From positions 31,926 through 95,925 of the forward strand of contig CALWZW010000002.1 of assembly GCA_944386135.1 (NCBI GenBank): 64,000 bases of DNA. Direction: 5' to 3'. Numbering within the stretch: the first letter of the stretch is position 1; each line of letters opens with the position of its first letter. The position numbers and the translations under genes are program-made. Below the pieces are notes generated by a model that worked only from the letters and a program-made list of their open reading frames with translations, was not told the DNA's origin and made no database searches. This stretch comes from an uncultured Clostridia bacterium (GTDB lineage Bacteria; Bacillota; Clostridia; TANB77; CAG-508). This document shows, in pieces, positions 48,456-60,419 of the stretch.

Positions 48456-49925
48456 TTAATATTGTGTAGCGCTTCCATTTACATAATCTGAAACTTTTAC
48501 CAAATTATTTTTTTCTCTCGCAAGTACTCGATAATAGGCAAGTATTTTTGAATCATAATATCTATCACTTGTATCTACAGCATCTATACTTGAATTAGAT
48601 GCATTTATTATACAATAATAACATGCTGTTTCATTATGTATATAATAATAAACATTTGACTCTTTACCATCTACAAGTTCTTTTAATTGAGTATTATTTT
48701 GTCCTATTGCTGTTTGTCTTGAAAATTCTTTTTTATTATATCCAACAATAGTATCTCCCTGTAAGTGTGTGCATCCAAGTCTATGGTAGCATCCATCTGA
48801 GCCATCTCCATACCCTATATAGTATAAGCTATTATCTCTTACGTATTGTTCATTTTCTGTACTTGGAACTATCACATAGTCATTAAATGTTGTAGTTCCA
48901 ACTGGAAATCCTTGTAAGAAACTTATTATACAAACGTTATGTAATATTTTGTCCCAGTCCTCTCCTGTAAGTTCAGGCATATAAAAATCTACTGTAGTTT
49001 TTTGACTATACATCTCCATTGCTTGCAATAAATTACTTGTTATTGTATCTTCTATTACTCTTGTTTTTTCACTATTGAAATCTGTTTGTTCATATGGAAG
49101 TGGATTATTATCTCTATCTATATATAATAAGTCATACTCTGGAAGCCCTCTTAAAGCTTCTTCTATTACACTATTATACCATATTGTAAAATCATAAGCT
49201 TCTCTATAATAATCATAAGCACTTGTAGAAGTTGATGTTTGTTCTGTTACATTAAAATCTGTGATTGTTCCATCTGATAATGTATTATAGGTATATGTGT
49301 TTAGTCTTATTTCTTCGTTTCTGTCGATTTTTACTCCTTTGTAGTATACATCTTCTCCTTCTACCCATACACCTTCATTTTTATCTATTACTTCAAGATA
49401 GCCTGCTTTAGAAGTATATTCGCCATCTGCCTTATTATCATAATATGCTACAACATAGTTATCTAATGTAAAATTTAGAACTAATTTTCTGTCATCTGAA
49501 TATGAGTATTCATTAGTATAATATACATAAGGTTTTAATTGATAATCTATTGTACCATCAGCATAGTTAGCAGGTGTATAAATATAATATCCATCATACA
49601 AAGTAAATACAAGTGCAGGAACATATGACATAATATTTCCTTCAGATGTTCCTGTTAATCCAAGAGAAGTCGCAAGTGATGTAGAAAACACATTTATCGT
49701 TGCTTCTAAATCTCTTATCAATGAATCTGATACAGTTGAATATCTATTATTTGTAGTATTCAATTGAAATGCCATCATAGTATCATAAGTTGCTCCCAAT
49801 AATTTACTTTCATAAGAAGCTCTTAGTGTAGCTGTATCGACTTGATATTCAATATATACAGATAATATTATAATTACTGGTAATGCTATTATTATAAATA
49901 TTATTAGTAAATTCTGTAATTTCAT
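48456..49925 (-). CDS. large N-terminally anchored extracellular protein, last gene of the Tad-like locus (possible pilus tip or TadG-like component)
   Basis: 489 aa. N-terminal TM (LLIIFIIIALPVIIILSV). Tyr/Thr/Asn-rich. Confidence 0.4.
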   Translation of the reverse strand: MKLQNLLIIFIIIALPVIIILSVYIEYQVDTATLRASYESKLLGATYDTMMAFQLNTTNNRYSTVSDSLIRDLEATINVFSTSLATSLGLTGTSEGNIMSYVPALVFTLYDGYYIYTPANYADGTIDYQLKPYVYYTNEYSYSDDRKLVLNFTLDNYVVAYYDNKADGEYTSKAGYLEVIDKNEGVWVEGEDVYYKGVKIDRNEEIRLNTYTYNTLSDGTITDFNVTEQTSTSTSAYDYYREAYDFTIWYNSVIEEALRGLPEYDLLYIDRDNNPLPYEQTDFNSEKTRVIEDTITSNLLQAMEMYSQKTTVDFYMPELTGEDWDKILHNVCIISFLQGFPVGTTTFNDYVIVPSTENEQYVRDNSLYYIGYGDGSDGCYHRLGCTHLQGDTIVGYNKKEFSRQTAIGQNNTQLKELVDGKESNVYYYIHNETACYYCIINASNSSIDAVDTSDRYYDSKILAYYRVLAREKNNLVKVSDYVNGSATQY

Positions 49926-50023
49926 ATTATAAGTTTTCTCCCTTTTGACAACTAATTAAAAATGTCTTTACCTCTTAGCTTAAACTATCTAGATAAAGAC
50001 ATTACTTATATGTGTGTTTACAA

Positions 50024-50548
50024 TTAACTTCCTGTAACTGCAATTACTCCTGATTGTGAAGCAACTATACTGTAACTACTGTTTCCAGATAAGCTATAAA
50101 AGAAGTTTTTAAGCATTTGAGATATTGTATTATTTGTATTTGCTGCACTTACTGTTATTATATCTCCTTCTTTTAATGGATATTCGGAATTCTTTTGTAA
50201 TTCATCAAATATCTGAGTTGTATATATCGAATAATAAATATTTTCTCCTATTTTTGTTTCGTCTGATTGTGTAGTCTTTTTTGATGGATTATCATCTAAA
50301 ACTTGTACTTCCATTGATATATCATATGTATTTCCTGTAGCATACAATGTTGAAACTAATGAATTATAGTCATCCATTGTTATCTTTCCAGTCTTTCGTA
50401 CAGTGTCAACAAATTCAGATATAGCTGTATTTACAGAAAGCTGAGCAATATCATCATTTCTTTCTGCAATTGACATCATTGGGAAAATACCTATTAGTAT
50501 AGCAGCTAGAAATATAGTTACTATTACTACGATTGTTTCTCCTTCCAT
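50024..50548 (-). CDS. TadE/pseudopilin-like protein (MEG-ETIVVIVTIFLAAILIGIF N-terminus)
   Basis: 174 aa. Short N-terminus, hydrophobic helix, then a Ser/Thr-rich domain. Confidence 0.4.
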   Translation of the reverse strand: MEGETIVVIVTIFLAAILIGIFPMMSIAERNDDIAQLSVNTAISEFVDTVRKTGKITMDDYNSLVSTLYATGNTYDISMEVQVLDDNPSKKTTQSDETKIGENIYYSIYTTQIFDELQKNSEYPLKEGDIITVSAANTNNTISQMLKNFFYSLSGNSSYSIVASQSGVIAVTGS

Positions 50549-50571
50549 ATTAAAACTTCCTCCTTTTATAG

Positions 50572-51463
50572 CTAATCAATTTCCACATATACTATTTCTT
50601 TCTTTATTGTTTGCATTATTTCACCAAATGAAAATAAGCTTTCATCACCATCTTCACTTGTTATATAATTATTTCTATCGATTTCTACTAAATATTCTGT
50701 AAATTTACTTTCTTGAAATTCTTTTATTAAACCTGTATCCTTAATACAAGATATATGATTTCCTACTTCATCAGCAGTATTTTCTGATTGTCCTCCAATG
50801 TTAGTTGAACTAAATCTAACATTTATTCCGAGATAAATCAGAGTCAATTCTTTGGGCAGTCCATCCCATTGTACCTACCCAGTAGCAATAATAGTCTCTT
50901 CTTATAGTATTAGAAGTTGTTTGTCCATATAATTTTTTAAATAAATCTGTCATTCCTTCGCTATTTATTCTGCAATAGCTTATGTCGTTATTTTCGTCCA
51001 ATACTGTATAAGCATCTATGTTGATTAAATCTATTTCATTGCCATTTATCCTTCTAGCCAGTGTATTAACATCTTCAAAAATACCATTTGTTTCTGTAAT
51101 AAATTTATATTTTGTATAATCAGATGCATTAACCCAATTGTTACAAGCTGTTTCAGTATCTAAATCAAACCTTGCTGTAATGTTTCCGTCTTTATCTATT
51201 ATTGTTACACCATAGTTTTCCTCAGAATATCTATATAATACTGGTATTATATCTTGTAATGTAACAATTCTATTACCATTATTATCAATTATATCTTCAG
51301 TTGGCTCTTCATAATATAAATAATGTATTGTTGGGTCTGTTTCTGAGATAAGGAAACTAGCTGTTTCTCTTGCCTGTGTCGTCATACTAAATAACGTTGC
51401 AAGTCCTATCATAAATATTAATACTGCAAAAGCAATTTTTAAAGCACCAACAGCATTTTCCAT
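50572..51463 (-). CDS. pilin-like protein with MENAVGALKIAFAVLIFMIGLATLF N-terminus, internal frameshift near 50830
   Basis: ORFs 50816-51463 and 50572-50847 overlap and join into one roughly 295 aa protein. Confidence 0.45.
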
Positions 51464-58739: not shown

Positions 58740-58744
58740 TTTTA

Positions 58745-59440
58745 TTATTCCCTTTCTAAAATTTTCATAGCCTTTGATATTTCCTTAGAAGAAATATCTT
58801 CATAAAATAGTGTTTCTAGCAAATATTCTAAACTTTCTTTATAATGTGAGCTTAGTCTTTTTATTTTTATCCTAGATACTATTTGGTTTTCTACTGTAAC
58901 GCTATAATTTCCAAGTTCTATTGGAAAATTAATCATTGTCTTATCCCATTTTACTTTATATCCAAGTGCTAGGTAATCTAAGTATTGATTTTCCTCTTTT
59001 AACATACTTTTAGAGAACAATACTTTTGTAAGTTGGATTGGTACTGTACATGCACTTAATATTTCTAATCCTTTTTTTAACGAATAAAGGTCAAATGCTG
59101 TGACAAAGCAGTTTTTATAATTTCGATATACATCAAAACTTTGAAACATTTCTGGTGTATCTATATCTATAAGTGCAATATCATAATCCAATGGTTTATC
59201 TCCGATTCCTAAGTAATCCTTTATTTCTTCTATACTTTTAAAGCCTACTGCTACATCAAATCCTTCAAACTCTGTTAGATATGTTCTAGTTGGACTAATT
59301 GATGGAACTACATATTTAGCTTTTTGATTGATCGTTGCATCTATTAATATTACTTTCTTTTTAGCTATACTTAAAATTCTTGCTATGTATAGTAATAAAT
59401 CTATTTTGTCATATCCGCCTAAAAAACCTACTGTTCTCAT
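58745..59440 (-). CDS. TadZ-like pseudo-ATPase (degenerate P-loop GFLGGYDKID, no Walker lysine)
   Basis: 231 aa, ParA-like length and layout. Walker A degenerate. Confidence 0.4.
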   Translation of the reverse strand: MRTVGFLGGYDKIDLLLYIARILSIAKKKVILIDATINQKAKYVVPSISPTRTYLTEFEGFDVAVGFKSIEEIKDYLGIGDKPLDYDIALIDIDTPEMFQSFDVYRNYKNCFVTAFDLYSLKKGLEILSACTVPIQLTKVLFSKSMLKEENQYLDYLALGYKVKWDKTMINFPIELGNYSVTVENQIVSRIKIKRLSSHYKESLEYLLETLFYEDISSKEISKAMKILERE

Positions 59441-59528
59441 TTATTTTTCTATCCTTTCTTAAATAGTAGCTTTTACTCAAACGAAAGTAAAGGCTATATA
59501 GGCTTTACTTTCGTTTTTATATATTTTT

Positions 59529-60419
59529 TTAATAAGCACCTAATGAATCAACGTATTCTTGTCTTGCTGTCTGTTGTTTTAAGATTTCTTGTTCTGTATT
59601 ATCCTCTACATTCGTTGTTGCATCTTCTGCATAACCGTTTAATGCTGAATTTATAGTGTCTCTTTGTGCTCTTGCACTCTCTGTATATCTTGCTGCTAAT
59701 TCAGTTTTAGCTACTGCTGTTATATTTGGATCAGCATTCATTAAATTGATAACCGAATTTGAAGCTACATATGTAGGTGTAGATGAGCCTTGTAATCCTG
59801 CATCTGTATATGTTGTTGCATATAGCAAAGAACCGTTCATAATGTATGCCTCTACTATAGCATTACTCATACTTAGTATTTCATCTTCTGATACTTTTAT
59901 CCATATAGTATCAGCATTAGTTTGTTCTACATATTTTTTTGATAAAACTATATAATCCTCTCCGCTTGGTAGTCTTAATCTTATATCAACTGTGTCTCCT
60001 GCTGCTAATTGAGTTGGTAAGATTACCATATTGTATTCTTGTAATCTAACGTCTGCAGTATCTGCCTCTCCTTCAACATTAATCATGTCTGTTGTAAGAA
60101 CTGTACCAACTTCTAGTTGAATTTTACTTGTAGCAAGATCTGTTATGTAAGTTATTGAGTTTTCTGGTGTAATTGCATTGTTTGGTGCAACTGAAGCTTC
60201 TACTTCTTGTAATTGTACCATTCCCAGTATTTTTCCTCCTGATGTAACCTGTTGACTTACTACATATACTTGCCTATATACTATTGCATCTTGTTCTTGT
60301 TTAATCTTTCCTAATTGAAGGATTAAAAACACAATAATTAAACCTGTTATTATTAAAGTTAAAAACATTCCTAATAAAAATGATGTTCTTGCTTTTTTTT
60401 GCATTGGATTCATTGCCAT
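59529..60419 (-). CDS. cpaB: Flp pilus assembly protein CpaB/RcpC-like (N-terminal TM plus SAF domain)
   Basis: 296 aa. TM FLLGMFLTLIITGLIIVFLIL. SAF-like beta-rich domain. First gene of the locus. Confidence 0.6.
   Translation of the reverse strand: MAMNPMQKKARTSFLLGMFLTLIITGLIIVFLILQLGKIKQEQDAIVYRQVYVVSQQVTSGGKILGMVQLQEVEASVAPNNAITPENSITYITDLATSKIQLEVGTVLTTDMINVEGEADTADVRLQEYNMVILPTQLAAGDTVDIRLRLPSGEDYIVLSKKYVEQTNADTIWIKVSEDEILSMSNAIVEAYIMNGSLLYATTYTDAGLQGSSTPTYVASNSVINLMNADPNITAVAKTELAARYTESARAQRDTINSALNGYAEDATTNVEDNTEQEILKQQTARQEYVDSLGAY

What the first reader, a model, noticed from the sequence alone, without database searches (positions are those of the whole stretch)
48456..60419. Tad/Flp-like pilus locus with non-canonical composition, immediately upstream of spoIVB in a spore former
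A 12 kb minus-strand cluster encodes the core Tad parts: CpaB(SAF) at 59529-60419, two CpaE/TadZ-like genes at 57885-59440, a CpaF/TadA-like ATPase at 55876-57859 and a fused TadB/TadC at 53771-55858. Eight downstream secreted or anchored proteins follow. There is no recognisable 50-80 aa Flp pilin and no A24 prepilin peptidase (TadV) anywhere in the window. The pilin candidates do not show the G/XXXXEY processing motif. The locus ends 140 bp before spoIVB, the sigma-G-dependent forespore signalling protease. Fibre systems with this gene content are poorly described in endospore-forming Clostridia. This could be a new Tad-derived appendage, possibly sporulation-linked.
Basis: partly seen in the sequence, partly recalled or inferred. 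Interest (0 to 1): 0.8.

Follow-up and report, generated by a model that had tools for sequence, protein, structure and literature searches.

The report
Published TANB77 Tad-like pilus gene cluster
This is one more copy of the 12-gene Tad-like pilus cluster already described in 2024 for the uncultured gut Clostridia order TANB77; its unusual pilin-like proteins are real, a link to sporulation is not supported, and this copy carries frameshifts.

Summary
The locus is real: 12 co-directional genes on the minus strand, 48456-60419. Three of them are split by frameshifts in this window: the ATPase, g8 and g10. The same gene order, followed by spoIVB, recurs in about 80 species genomes. At least 467 species-representative genomes encode the ATPase at 76% identity or more. 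All are gut MAGs such as Clostridium sp. CAG:245.

Kim et al. 2024 (Nat Commun 15:10726) already described this cluster as the conserved TANB77 pilus cluster: CpaB, TadZ, CpaE, TadA/CpaF, fused TadC/TadB and seven pilin-like proteins.

What I add:
- Four pilin-like genes start with an invariant M-E-N-A-S-K-A-L plus a membrane helix, directly after a strong ribosome-binding site. There is no Flp motif and no A24 peptidase nearby. They are either unprocessed or carry a 7-residue leader.
- The operon has a sigma-A-type promoter preceded by 3-4 ATTACA repeats spaced 11 bp apart.
- g12 is followed by a terminator hairpin, and spoIVB often has its own sigma-G/F-like promoter.
- Gene-for-gene homologous systems exist in cultured Paenibacillus and Rummeliibacillus, none of them next to spoIVB.

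I could not confirm a TadB/C fold for the platform protein or a pilin fold for the subunits.

The parts
60521..60559 (-). Operator-like array: four direct repeats (ATTACT, ATTACA, TTTACA, ATTACA) spaced 11 bp apart, upstream of the operon promoter
   Evidence: An exact ATTACA-N5-ATTACA occurs upstream of g1 in 48 of 70 loci (0 expected). In 1.56 Mb of related loci, 51 of 52 such double boxes lie upstream of g1.
60478..60506 (-). Sigma-A-type promoter: -35 TTGTAT (60501-60506), 17-nt spacer, -10 TATAAT (60478-60483)
   Evidence: The equivalent TTGATT/TTGTTT-N16-19-TAAAAT/TACAAT is found at the same place in most related loci. This is a consensus match only; no transcript data.
59529..60419 (-). 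g1: CpaB-like bitopic protein, 296 aa, N-terminal membrane helix, SAF-type domain
   Evidence: The window copy has no Pfam hit. 31 of 43 orthologues hit SAF (best E 9e-7) and 14 hit ChapFlgA. Published structural match to CpaB.
58745..59440 (-). g2: small cytoplasmic protein, 231 aa, TadZ-like by published structure; the P-loop position reads GAYDKTD
   Evidence: No Pfam or NCBIfam hit. The profile reaches only MinD at E 0.75 in the PDB. Consensus. TadZ assignment from PMC11680825.
57885..58739 (-). g3: ParA/MinD-fold protein, 284 aa, CpaE/TadZ-like, degenerate Walker A (…TGKIGQT…)
   Evidence: AAA_31 E 4e-5, below threshold. 15 of 42 orthologues hit CbiA and AAA_31. The profile hits the ParA-family structure 3ea0 at E 2e-4.
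55876..57859 (-). g4: CpaF/TadA-like secretion ATPase, about 660 aa when repaired, with an N-terminal membrane helix; split by a +1 base at about 56504 inside Walker B
   Evidence: The PDB hits below E 0.001 are CpaF only (E 1e-8 to 6e-8), with Walker A, Walker B and His box aligned. NCBIfam best hit is TIGR03819, TadA family. Orthologues are intact and 76-96% identical.
53771..55858 (-). g5: polytopic membrane protein, 695 aa, about 8 hydrophobic segments; presumed platform (published: TadC-like plus TadB-like halves)
   Evidence: membrane segments. No Pfam or PDB sequence hit even with profiles. AF2 model pLDDT 68.5, all-alpha. Foldseek against the PDB found nothing. No internal repeat. The family has 1238 clusters at 50% identity. 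One homologue is named 'GspF domain-containing' by UniRef.
53088..53750 (-). g6: MENA-type pilin-like protein, 220 aa
   Evidence: N-terminus MENASKALMMAGGVLLAI…. 74 of 87 orthologues start MENAS/T/A and 79 of 87 have an SD-like motif 4-18 nt upstream.
52620..53063 (-). g7: MENA-type pilin-like protein, 147 aa
   Evidence: 65 of 69 orthologues with an SD motif before ATG-GAA-AAT-GCA.
52106..52559 (-). g8: MKK plus hydrophobic-anchor protein, about 150 aa, paralogue of the g6 head domain; frameshift-split here; own extended -10 (TGTTATAAT) just upstream
51489..52013 (-). g9: MENA-type pilin-like protein, 174 aa; best candidate for the major subunit; Gly/Thr-rich disordered tail encoded by a 6-bp repeat (51553-51622)
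50572..51463 (-). g10: MENA-type pilin-like protein (about 250-300 aa in relatives), frameshift-split here into 215-aa and 91-aa ORFs
50024..50548 (-). g11: small anchored protein, 174 aa (orthologue consensus N-terminus MGDTLITI…FIFPL…); possible minor subunit
   Evidence: 16 of 38 orthologues weakly hit DUF4320 (best E 0.003). Homologues in Paenibacillus and Rummeliibacillus.
48456..49925 (-). g12: large anchored protein, 489 aa; equivalent of the published 'pilin 938' (N-terminal quarter TadE/PilV-like by published structure)
   Evidence: No TadE Pfam hit in 34 orthologues.
48412..48452 (-). AT-rich perfect hairpin followed by a T-run directly after the g12 stop: a likely intrinsic terminator closing the operon
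   Evidence: RNAfold dG -14.7 kcal/mol; coordinates. 20 of 53 intergenic regions fold at <= -8 kcal/mol.
47045..48313 (-). spoIVB (PDZ plus Peptidase_S55): a neighbouring gene, not part of the operon; broken by at least 3 frameshifts here; AATACTA -10-like element at 48394-48400

Best explanation
The locus is the window organism's copy of the TANB77-conserved, Tad-derived type IV filament gene cluster.

Inferred mechanism:
- A membrane-tethered CpaF/TadA-like hexameric ATPase (g4) drives a polytopic platform protein (g5).
- Two catalytically degenerate ParA/MinD-like proteins (g2, g3) act as scaffolds.
- A CpaB-like SAF-domain protein (g1) spans the wall side.
- The machine extracts membrane-anchored subunits and polymerises them into a surface fibre. 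The subunits are the four 'MENA' proteins g6, g7, g9 and g10, together with g8, g11 and g12.
- The fibre most likely serves adhesion or colonisation in the gut.

The subunits are not Flp pilins. They are 130-250 aa 'lollipop' proteins: a roughly 54-residue N-terminal helix plus a small head. They begin M-E-N-A-S-K-A-L. Most likely they are used without prepilin-peptidase processing, with E2 playing the part of E5. Less likely, they are cut after K-A by a peptidase encoded elsewhere.

Transcription starts from a sigma-A-type promoter controlled through four ATTACA repeats spaced 11 bp apart, a layout typical of winged-helix response regulators. It ends at a hairpin before spoIVB, which is a separate forespore-type unit.

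Shown: gene content, conservation, N-terminal motif, start sites, cis elements, CpaF relationship. Inferred: fibre formation, lack of processing, function, regulator.
For: - Same 12-gene order and sizes as the published cluster 927-938. The ATPase is 80% identical to the Clostridium sp. CAG:245 locus L076, the published reference species.
- CpaF is the only solved family hit, with Walker A, Walker B and His box aligned.
- SAF recurs in g1 orthologues and ParA-type domains in g3 orthologues.
- The g9 model has a 54-residue N-terminal helix plus head at pLDDT 82.5.
- MENA is invariant and sits directly behind GGAGG-type ribosome-binding sites in about 90% of orthologues.
- The M-[EDN]-N start is kept in whole-system homologues from Paenibacillus, Rummeliibacillus, a Blautia-like contig and a conjugation-associated contig.
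- No A24 peptidase in the window or in any fetched locus.
- Promoter, operator and terminator.
- GC content of the locus equals that of the surroundings, so it is not an island.
Against: - No filament has been seen; TANB77 is uncultured.
- The pilin-like head has no fold match to any solved pilin. No pilin HMM (N_methyl, Flp_Fap, TadE, archaeal Pilin_N) recurs in 102 homologues.
- I could not reproduce a T2SSF/TadB-C relationship for g5 by profile, Pfam or Foldseek against the PDB. That assignment rests on the published AFDB comparison and one UniRef name.
- K at -2 and A at -1 before the hydrophobic stretch would also fit a short class III signal peptide.
- In this window the ATPase is frameshifted at Walker B. 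If that is real, this copy is dead.
Confidence: 0.7

Rival explanations
1. An ordinary type IV/Tad system whose pilins are processed. MENASKA would be a 7-residue class III signal peptide (K at -2, A at -1) removed by an A24 prepilin peptidase (TadV, ComC or PilD type) encoded elsewhere in the genome. The mature subunit would start at L8, with no Glu5, as in archaeal pilins.
For: K6, A7 and L8 are invariant in 102 g9 homologues. The same K-A-L or K-G-L appears in some distant homologues (METNLKA|L, MDNSLKG|L). Leader length and K-[G/A] resemble short type IVa and archaeal leaders (my own knowledge, not tested). In monoderm Tad systems tadV can lie away from the locus, and only 64 kb was available here.
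Against: M1-E2-N3-A4 are invariant, and M-[EDN]-N is conserved from Clostridia to Bacilli; that is unusual for a discarded leader. The -2/-1 positions are S-A, T-A, D-A, K-I, K-T, D-T and H-A in other homologues. No prepilin N-terminal models hit. No A24 gene lies within 10 kb of any of about 90 loci.
Confidence: 0.3
2. A sporulation-linked appendage or channel, co-regulated with spoIVB and expressed in the sporangium.
For: Adjacency to spoIVB is conserved in 53 or more loci, with gaps under 400 nt. A SASP gene lies about 1.2 kb upstream.
Against: The operon promoter is sigma-A-like with its own operator. A terminator hairpin follows g12, and a separate G[TA]ATA-N17/18-AATACTA element precedes spoIVB in 25 of 53 loci against 3 expected. 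Homologous systems in five other genomes or contigs have no spoIVB neighbour. Conserved order inside one vertically evolving order is expected without any functional link.
Confidence: 0.07
3. Not a pilus but a Tad-like secretion, pseudopilus or conjugation/DNA-transfer device. The anchored proteins would form a short piston or a cell-wall-spanning structure rather than a long fibre.
For: The best NCBIfam hit of the ATPase is the 'TadA family conjugal transfer-associated ATPase'. One homologous system (L090) sits directly beside TraC-like and VirB4-like (DUF87/AAA_10) genes. Subunit heads resemble no known pilin.
Against: That NCBIfam hit is far below its cut-off (28 bits against 373). The TANB77 locus is chromosomal, reported as single-copy, has native GC content, and has no relaxase or coupling protein within 10 kb. 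Seven subunit genes, one with a strongly conserved helix, fit the major-plus-minor-pilin pattern.
Confidence: 0.15
4. In this particular organism the locus is a decaying pseudogene cluster: the ATPase, g8 and g10 are broken, as is spoIVB.
For: There are seven frameshifts in about 14.7 kb. An independent public contig (L086) is 99.4% identical, has 46 substitutions, and shares the ATPase, HAD and g8 breaks; indels between the two occur only in a poly-A run and the g9 repeat. The ATPase insertion is not in a homopolymer.
Against: The essential murB is also split in the window, which points to systematic assembly or base-calling error. All other species carry intact genes. The remaining nine genes of the locus are intact.
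Confidence: 0.3

Closest known systems
TANB77 conserved pilus gene cluster, genes 927-938 of HRGM_Genome_2725 (CAG-245 sp000435175); Kim et al., Nat Commun 2024;15:10726 (PMC11680825)
   Same: Same 12 genes in the same order with matching sizes: CpaB-like, TadZ-like, CpaE-like, TadA/CpaF with one membrane helix, a 69x-aa protein with 8 membrane helices, then seven anchored pilin-like proteins. The ATPase is 80% identical to the CAG-245 locus L076.
   Different: This is a different species; the nearest genome locus is 96% identical at the ATPase protein level and 80-87% at DNA level. This copy has frameshifts. The paper does not use the words peptidase or spor-. In the passages I read it also does not discuss the MENA start, the ATTACA operator or the spoIVB neighbour. 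It states near-exclusivity to TANB77, whereas whole-system homologues at 25-48% identity exist in Paenibacillus, Rummeliibacillus and others.
Canonical Tad/Flp (type IVc) pilus systems: Aggregatibacter tad, Caulobacter cpa, Bifidobacterium breve tad, Bulleidia extructa tad (PMC12786226)
   Same: CpaF/TadA-type ATPase, ParA-like TadZ/CpaE, CpaB-like SAF protein, a platform, several minor subunits; a single ATPase.
   Different: No 50-80 aa Flp pilin with G/XXXXEY. No tadV in or near the locus, whereas the Bulleidia operon starts with tadV and two headless pilins. Subunits have globular heads. The platform is one fused protein with no T2SSF sequence signal. The ATPase has a membrane helix and a roughly 260-aa extra N-terminal region. 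Both ParA-like proteins have degenerate P-loops.
Type IVa and archaeal type IV pilins (lollipop pilins with short class III signal peptides)
   Same: A roughly 53-residue N-terminal helix followed by a small alpha/beta head. A possible K-[G/A] site before the hydrophobic stretch.
   Different: No Gly at -1 and no Glu5. No N_methyl or archaeal Pilin_N model hits. The head has no fold match. The residues before the putative site are invariant.
Com (ComG) pseudopilus of monoderm bacteria
   Same: A type IV filament machine working across a single membrane and a thick wall, with several minor pilins.
   Different: Com uses a ComGA (PilB-like) ATPase, a ComGB (T2SSF) platform, the ComC peptidase and GFxxxE pilins. 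None of these signatures is present here.

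Membership tests
TANB77 conserved pilus gene cluster (Kim et al. 2024) | Twelve co-directional genes with the published order and sizes (358, 231, 280, 640, 693, 165, 170, 143, 146, 237, 178, 621 aa) | tested here: met
   The window has the same 12 genes once frameshifts are repaired. L076 (Clostridium sp. 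CAG:245) gives 357, 230, 279, 639, 692, 164, 177, 156, 143, 236 and 177 aa, with g12 split. Published table.
TANB77 conserved pilus gene cluster (Kim et al. 2024) | Close homology to the cluster of TANB77 genomes | tested here: met
   The ATPase is 76-96% and the platform 59-86% identical across 80 gut-MAG loci, including CAG:245.
Tad/Flp (type IVc) pilus system | CpaF/TadA-type secretion ATPase | tested here: met
   CpaF is the only PDB family below E 0.001 (1e-8 to 6e-8), with Walker A, Walker B and His box aligned. Pfam T2SSE is below threshold in the window fragment but on record for homologues.
Tad/Flp (type IVc) pilus system | TadB/TadC platform proteins carrying T2SSF (GspF) domains | tested here: inconclusive
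   No T2SSF hit in 41 orthologues or 10 distant homologues. Profiles find nothing in the PDB. Foldseek of the AF2 model (pLDDT 68.5) against the PDB found nothing. The published AFDB comparison reports TadC/TadB halves. UniRef names one homologue GspF-domain-containing.
Tad/Flp (type IVc) pilus system | TadZ/CpaE ParA/MinD-like protein | tested here: met
   g3: 15 of 42 orthologues hit CbiA and AAA_31, and the PDB ParA-family structure 3ea0 is hit at E 2e-4. g2 is only marginal. Walker A is degenerate in both.
Tad/Flp (type IVc) pilus system | CpaB/RcpC-type SAF-domain protein | tested here: met
   SAF in 31 of 43 orthologues (best E 9e-7) and ChapFlgA in 14. The window copy itself is below detection.
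Tad/Flp (type IVc) pilus system | Flp-type major pilin: 50-80 aa with a G/XXXXEY processing motif | tested here: not met
   There is no such ORF. All seven subunit candidates are 130 aa or longer and start MENA…, MKK…, MGDT… or MKIQ…. No Flp_Fap hit.
Tad/Flp (type IVc) pilus system | Dedicated prepilin peptidase TadV (Peptidase_A24) | tested here: not met
   None among the ORFs with three or more predicted membrane helices in the 64 kb window. None among the called genes within 10 kb in L001-L005 and L086-L091. Absence from whole genomes could not be tested with these tools.
Tad/Flp (type IVc) pilus system | TadE/TadF-type pseudopilins (PF07811) | tested here: not met
   No TadE hit in 72 g11 and g12 orthologues; only weak DUF4320 hits for g11. 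The published partial structural match of the 938 N-terminus to TadE/PilV was not re-tested.
Type IV filament superfamily (general) | Subunits with a class III signal peptide cleaved by an A24 peptidase | tested here: inconclusive
   No leader beyond 7 residues is possible, because an SD motif sits directly before the ATG of MENA. There is no Gly at -1, and no N_methyl or archaeal models hit. A K-A|L site cannot be excluded.
Sporulation (sigma F/E/G/K) regulon | Operon driven by a sporulation-sigma promoter or co-transcribed with spoIVB | tested here: not met
   Conserved TTGATT/TTGTTT-N16-19-TAAAAT/TACAAT upstream of g1. A hairpin terminator follows g12, and spoIVB has a separate sigma-G/F-like element. 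This is sequence evidence only.

The most novel reading that the evidence does not exclude
The TANB77 cluster and its homologues in Paenibacillus, Rummeliibacillus, Lachnospiraceae-like contigs and at least one conjugative-element-like contig would define a distinct class of Tad-derived type IV filament systems in Bacillota. All subunits would be made without a cleavable class III signal peptide: they start M-[E/D/N]-N-x-x-x-[A/G]-L followed by a membrane helix. They would be polymerised without any prepilin peptidase, with an acidic residue at position 2 replacing Glu5. This would be the first type IV filament that does not depend on an A24 peptidase.
Probability: 0.35. Interest if true: 0.7.

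Novelty: already known. Interest (0 to 1): 0.38.

Why it matters
[quoted passage not shown] One of its proteins (938, equivalent to g12 here) was reported to enhance anti-PD-1 efficacy in mice (PMC11680825). How the machine works is still unknown.

1. The subunits carry an invariant MENASKAL start with no Flp motif and no nearby peptidase. This raises the question of whether a type IV filament can be built without prepilin processing.
2. Gene-for-gene homologous systems exist in cultured Paenibacillus agilis, Paenibacillus sp. JX-17 and Rummeliibacillus stabekisii, where genetics, microscopy and N-terminal mass spectrometry are feasible.
3. A highly specific operator of ATTACA repeats spaced 11 bp apart points to control by a response regulator rather than by sporulation sigma factors.

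Tried and rejected
- Pfam and NCBIfam on every ORF of the locus gave almost nothing above threshold.
- Profile searches of g1, g2 and g5 against PDB sequences gave no significant hits.
- Foldseek of the whole g5 model against the PDB found nothing. All three fold-search jobs were then spent, so the two halves could not be searched separately or against AFDB.
- hhalign of the g5 N-terminal half against the C-terminal half found no internal repeat.
- Pfam on 10 distant g5 homologues gave no T2SSF bridge.
- Pfam on 102 g9 homologues gave no pilin family, only Gly-rich-tail noise.
- NCBIfam on distant pilin-like proteins gave nothing.
- The generic sigma-70 and terminator scan was uninformative in this AT-rich DNA: 108 promoter-like sites against 102 expected, and it missed the AT-rich hairpin.
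- Rfam found no riboswitch or other RNA family in the window.
- A look for a response regulator in the window found none by a simple receiver-motif search.
- Horizontal transfer was rejected because GC content and skew match the surroundings.
- Programmed frameshifting at the ATPase break was considered and rejected. There is no slippery or homopolymer context, and similar breaks occur in many unrelated genes.

Full report
**1. What is in the sequence**

The minus strand between 48456 and 60419 carries a tight row of co-directional ORFs. Three-frame translation and tblastn with intact orthologues show 12 genes, which I call g1 to g12. Three of them are interrupted by frameshifts in this window.
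- The ATPase g4 is split into 56450-57859 and 55876-56478 by one extra base near 56504.
- g8 is split within 52106-52559.
- g10 is split within 50572-51463.

The gene 142 nt downstream is spoIVB (PDZ plus Peptidase_S55), here broken into at least four frame segments. The GC content of the locus (0.28-0.30) matches the rest of the window.

**2. How strong the family labels are**

On the window proteins themselves, Pfam and NCBIfam give almost nothing.
- There is no hit for g1, g2, g5 or any downstream protein.
- g3 gives AAA_31 at E 4e-5, below the family cut-off.
- The N-terminal ATPase fragment gives T2SSE at E 5e-4 and TIGR03819 (TadA family) at E 1e-6, both far below their cut-offs.

With the repaired ATPase, the only solved relatives are CpaF structures (E 1e-8). 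In the profile alignment Walker A (GEQGCGKTT), Walker B (NIIGEV) and the His box (FTHHAKT) line up with those of CpaF. The frameshift falls exactly at Walker B.

Scanning orthologues gives recurrent weak signals. SAF appears in 31 of 43 g1 orthologues. CbiA and AAA_31 appear in 15 of 42 g3 orthologues. The ParA-family structure 3ea0 is hit at E 2e-4.

g2 and g5 stay orphan by sequence.

**3. Distribution and identity**

The ATPase has thousands of relatives at 81-93% identity, all from gut metagenomes and MAGs. The few that carry names are labelled 'Clostridia bacterium' or Candidatus Merdicola.

A scan of one genome per GTDB species found at least 467 stretches encoding a relative at 76% identity or more. 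All 80 loci kept are gut MAGs, including Clostridium sp. CAG:245.

In these loci the order is conserved: HAD hydrolase, g1 to g12, spoIVB, then murC on the opposite strand. The ATPase is 79-94% and the platform 59-86% identical to the intact reference locus L004. The subunit genes are much more divergent, at 25-70%.

**4. It is already published**

A literature search found Kim et al., Nat Commun 2024;15:10726 (PMC11680825). They report a stretch of 10-14 genes conserved in 122 of 129 TANB77 species. Their reference is a 12-gene cluster (927-938) from CAG-245 sp000435175.

From eggNOG, DeepTMHMM and AlphaFold2/Foldseek they annotate it as follows:
- CpaB (358 aa), TadZ (231 aa) and CpaE (280 aa);
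- TadA/CpaF (640 aa, one membrane helix);
- a 693-aa protein with 8 membrane helices whose halves resemble TadC and TadB;
- seven 'pilin-like' proteins of 143-621 aa.

Sizes and order match L076 and the window. They could not assign 932-937 by sequence or structure.

The paper contains no occurrence of 'peptidase' or 'spor'. Later papers only cite it, and TANB77 remains uncultured.

**5. The subunits**

g6, g7, g9 and g10 start MENA(S/T/A)KAL followed by a hydrophobic helix in nearly all species. For example, 66 of 76 g9 orthologues start MENAS. In 102 database homologues of g9, M1, E2, N3, A4, K6, A7, L8, I10, A11 and G12 are invariant.

The ATG of MENA is the first possible start after an in-frame stop. 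It is preceded by a GGAGG-type motif in 79 of 87, 65 of 69, 71 of 76 and 61 of 73 orthologues. No longer leader can therefore exist.

An AlphaFold2 model of g9 (102-sequence alignment, mean pLDDT 82.5) shows three parts:
- a continuous helix over residues 2-55;
- a small alpha/beta head;
- a disordered Gly/Thr tail.

Two readings remain open.
- *Unprocessed.* The protein is used as made, with E2 in the role of E5.
- *Processed.* MENASKA is a 7-residue leader cut after K-A by a peptidase encoded elsewhere.

I favour the first. M-[E/D/N]-N is conserved even in the distant systems described in section 7, while the -2/-1 positions are not. It is not settled.

The other three subunit candidates start differently:
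- g8 begins MKK followed by a hydrophobic anchor.
- g11 begins MGDTLITI…FIFPL in the orthologue consensus.
- g12 begins MKIQNL… in the orthologue consensus.

g11 weakly matches DUF4320 in 16 orthologues, and there is no TadE hit.

**6. The platform**

The g5 model is all-alpha with only moderate confidence (pLDDT 68.5). A whole-chain Foldseek search of the PDB found nothing. hhalign finds no repeat between its halves.

An exhaustive HMMER search shows a large family: 1238 clusters at 50% identity with E <= 1e-3, and 627 with E <= 1e-30. Ten distant members have no T2SSF hit. One member, from Paenibacillus sp. JX-17, is named 'GspF domain-containing' by UniRef.

The TadB/C assignment therefore rests on the published structure comparison, which I could not repeat.

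**7. Relatives outside TANB77**

Distant g5 homologues come from these sources:
- Paenibacillus agilis (L087);
- Paenibacillus sp. JX-17 (L091);
- Rummeliibacillus stabekisii (L089);
- a contig whose protein cluster includes a Blautia MAG member (L088);
- a contig where the system lies beside TraC-like and VirB4-like genes (L090).

BLASTP shows the whole system is homologous for the three loci compared, L087, L088 and L089.
- g1: 30-32% identity, E down to 4e-34.
- g2 and g3: hits to E 3e-16 and 5e-20; g3 has no hit in L087.
- g4: 44-48% identity.
- g5: 26-31% identity.
- g9: E about 1e-8, in L087 and L089.
- g11 and g12: hits in L087 and L089 only.

Their small subunits start MNNAQSAL, MNNASTAL, MTETPSSAI, MDNSLKGL, METNLKAL, MEHSLDTI and similar. 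No called gene carries a Peptidase_A24 hit in any of these loci, and none lies next to spoIVB.

The architecture is thus a wider Bacillota system type that also occurs in cultured bacteria.

**8. Regulation and the spoIVB question**

Upstream of g1 the window has four repeats (ATTACT, ATTACA, TTTACA, ATTACA) spaced 11 bp apart at 60521-60559. They are followed by TTGTAT-N17-TATAAT (60478-60506) and a GAGGAGG ribosome-binding site.

An exact ATTACA-N5-ATTACA is present upstream of g1 in 48 of 70 loci, against 0 expected. In 1.56 Mb of related loci, 51 of 52 such double boxes lie upstream of g1. The downstream -35 and -10 elements are conserved as TTGATT/TTGTTT and TAAAAT/TACAAT.

Direct repeats with this spacing are typical of winged-helix response regulators. 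The reverse complement, TGTAAT-N5-TGTAAT, fits the WalR consensus as I remember it. That is a lead, not a test.

After g12 the window has a perfect AT-rich hairpin followed by a T-run (48412-48452, dG -14.7 kcal/mol). In 25 of 53 loci spoIVB is preceded at about -27 by G[TA]ATA-N17/18-AATACTA or AATAATA, against 3 expected. This resembles forespore sigma-G/F promoters.

Together with section 7, this argues that the adjacency to spoIVB is inherited gene order, not a functional link.

**9. The frameshifts**

An independent public contig (L086) is 99.4% identical to the window over 13 kb. It shares the ATPase, HAD and g8 breaks. Indels between the two occur only in a poly-A run and in the g9 Gly-Thr repeat.

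On the other hand, murB, an essential gene, is also split in the window, as is an MscS-type channel gene.

I cannot decide between systematic sequencing artefact and real decay. All other species have intact genes.

**10. Verdict**

The locus is the published TANB77 pilus cluster, so it is not a new system, and the sporulation idea is not supported.

The open and interesting residue has three parts: the unusual subunit N-termini, which may not need a peptidase; the operator array; and the existence of cultured relatives.

Noticed in passing
window 15682-16606, 37001-38054, 40225-41287, 47045-48313, 60648-61445: Many genes outside the locus are also split by frameshifts. murB is split into an N-terminal FAD_binding_4 part and a C-terminal part with MurB_C. 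An MscS-type channel is split, probably an M50 peptidase too, spoIVB is broken three times, and the HAD hydrolase loses its C-terminus. Long genes such as polC, pnp and nrdD are intact. An independent contig (L086) shares three of the breaks.
   Followed up: partly
window 44281-44297 (+): The only other exact ATTACA-N5-ATTACA in the 64 kb window lies about 120 nt upstream of a Crp/Fnr-type regulator gene (44417-45073), between it and nrdD. It may belong to the same regulon as the pilus operon.
   Followed up: no
window 51553-51622; L086 14238-14369: The Gly/Thr-rich tail of g9 is encoded by a 6-bp repeat (about 11.7 copies). Its length differs between the window (174 aa) and the 99.4%-identical contig L086 (185 aa). 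Homologues in other species have G/S/T-rich tails of varying length. This may be a variable or glycosylated surface tail.
   Followed up: partly
L090 1-3227 and 5808-19600: One distant homologous system (ENA contig, GC 34%) lies directly downstream of TraC-like, VirB4-like (DUF87/AAA_10/TraG P-loop) and Peptidase_C39-like genes. It also contains a 1670-aa coiled-coil surface protein. This suggests that some members of this system type travel on, or serve, conjugative elements.
   Followed up: no
L087 (Paenibacillus agilis), L091 (Paenibacillus sp. JX-17), L089 (Rummeliibacillus stabekisii): Cultured Bacilli carry gene-for-gene homologues of the TANB77 system. In the two Paenibacillus genomes the flanks are conserved: Ser/Thr kinase, FtsJ-like methyltransferase and a cREC_REC gene upstream, thiamine genes downstream. 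The published claim of near-exclusivity to TANB77 therefore holds only for close homologues.
   Followed up: partly
L010, L013, L015, L017, L020, L022, L027, L038, L040, L044, L079 and others (spoIVB column): spoIVB appears as two ORFs in many TANB77 MAGs, often in a recurring pattern of about 121-140 aa plus about 291 aa. This could be a shared frameshift, a different start site or a genuine split. It bears on whether these organisms still sporulate.
   Followed up: no
window 52560-52585; same position in L001, L004, L006, L009-L011: g8 is preceded by a conserved (TG)TATAAT -10 box about 15-20 nt before its start codon. This agrees with the published prediction that several subunit genes have their own promoters.
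   Followed up: partly
window 61660-61866 (+) and 61968-62264 (-): A small acid-soluble spore protein gene lies divergently about 1.2 kb upstream of the operon. Next to it is a 98-aa Cys-rich protein (CC and CxC motifs at both ends) with three hydrophobic segments and no family assignment.
   Followed up: no
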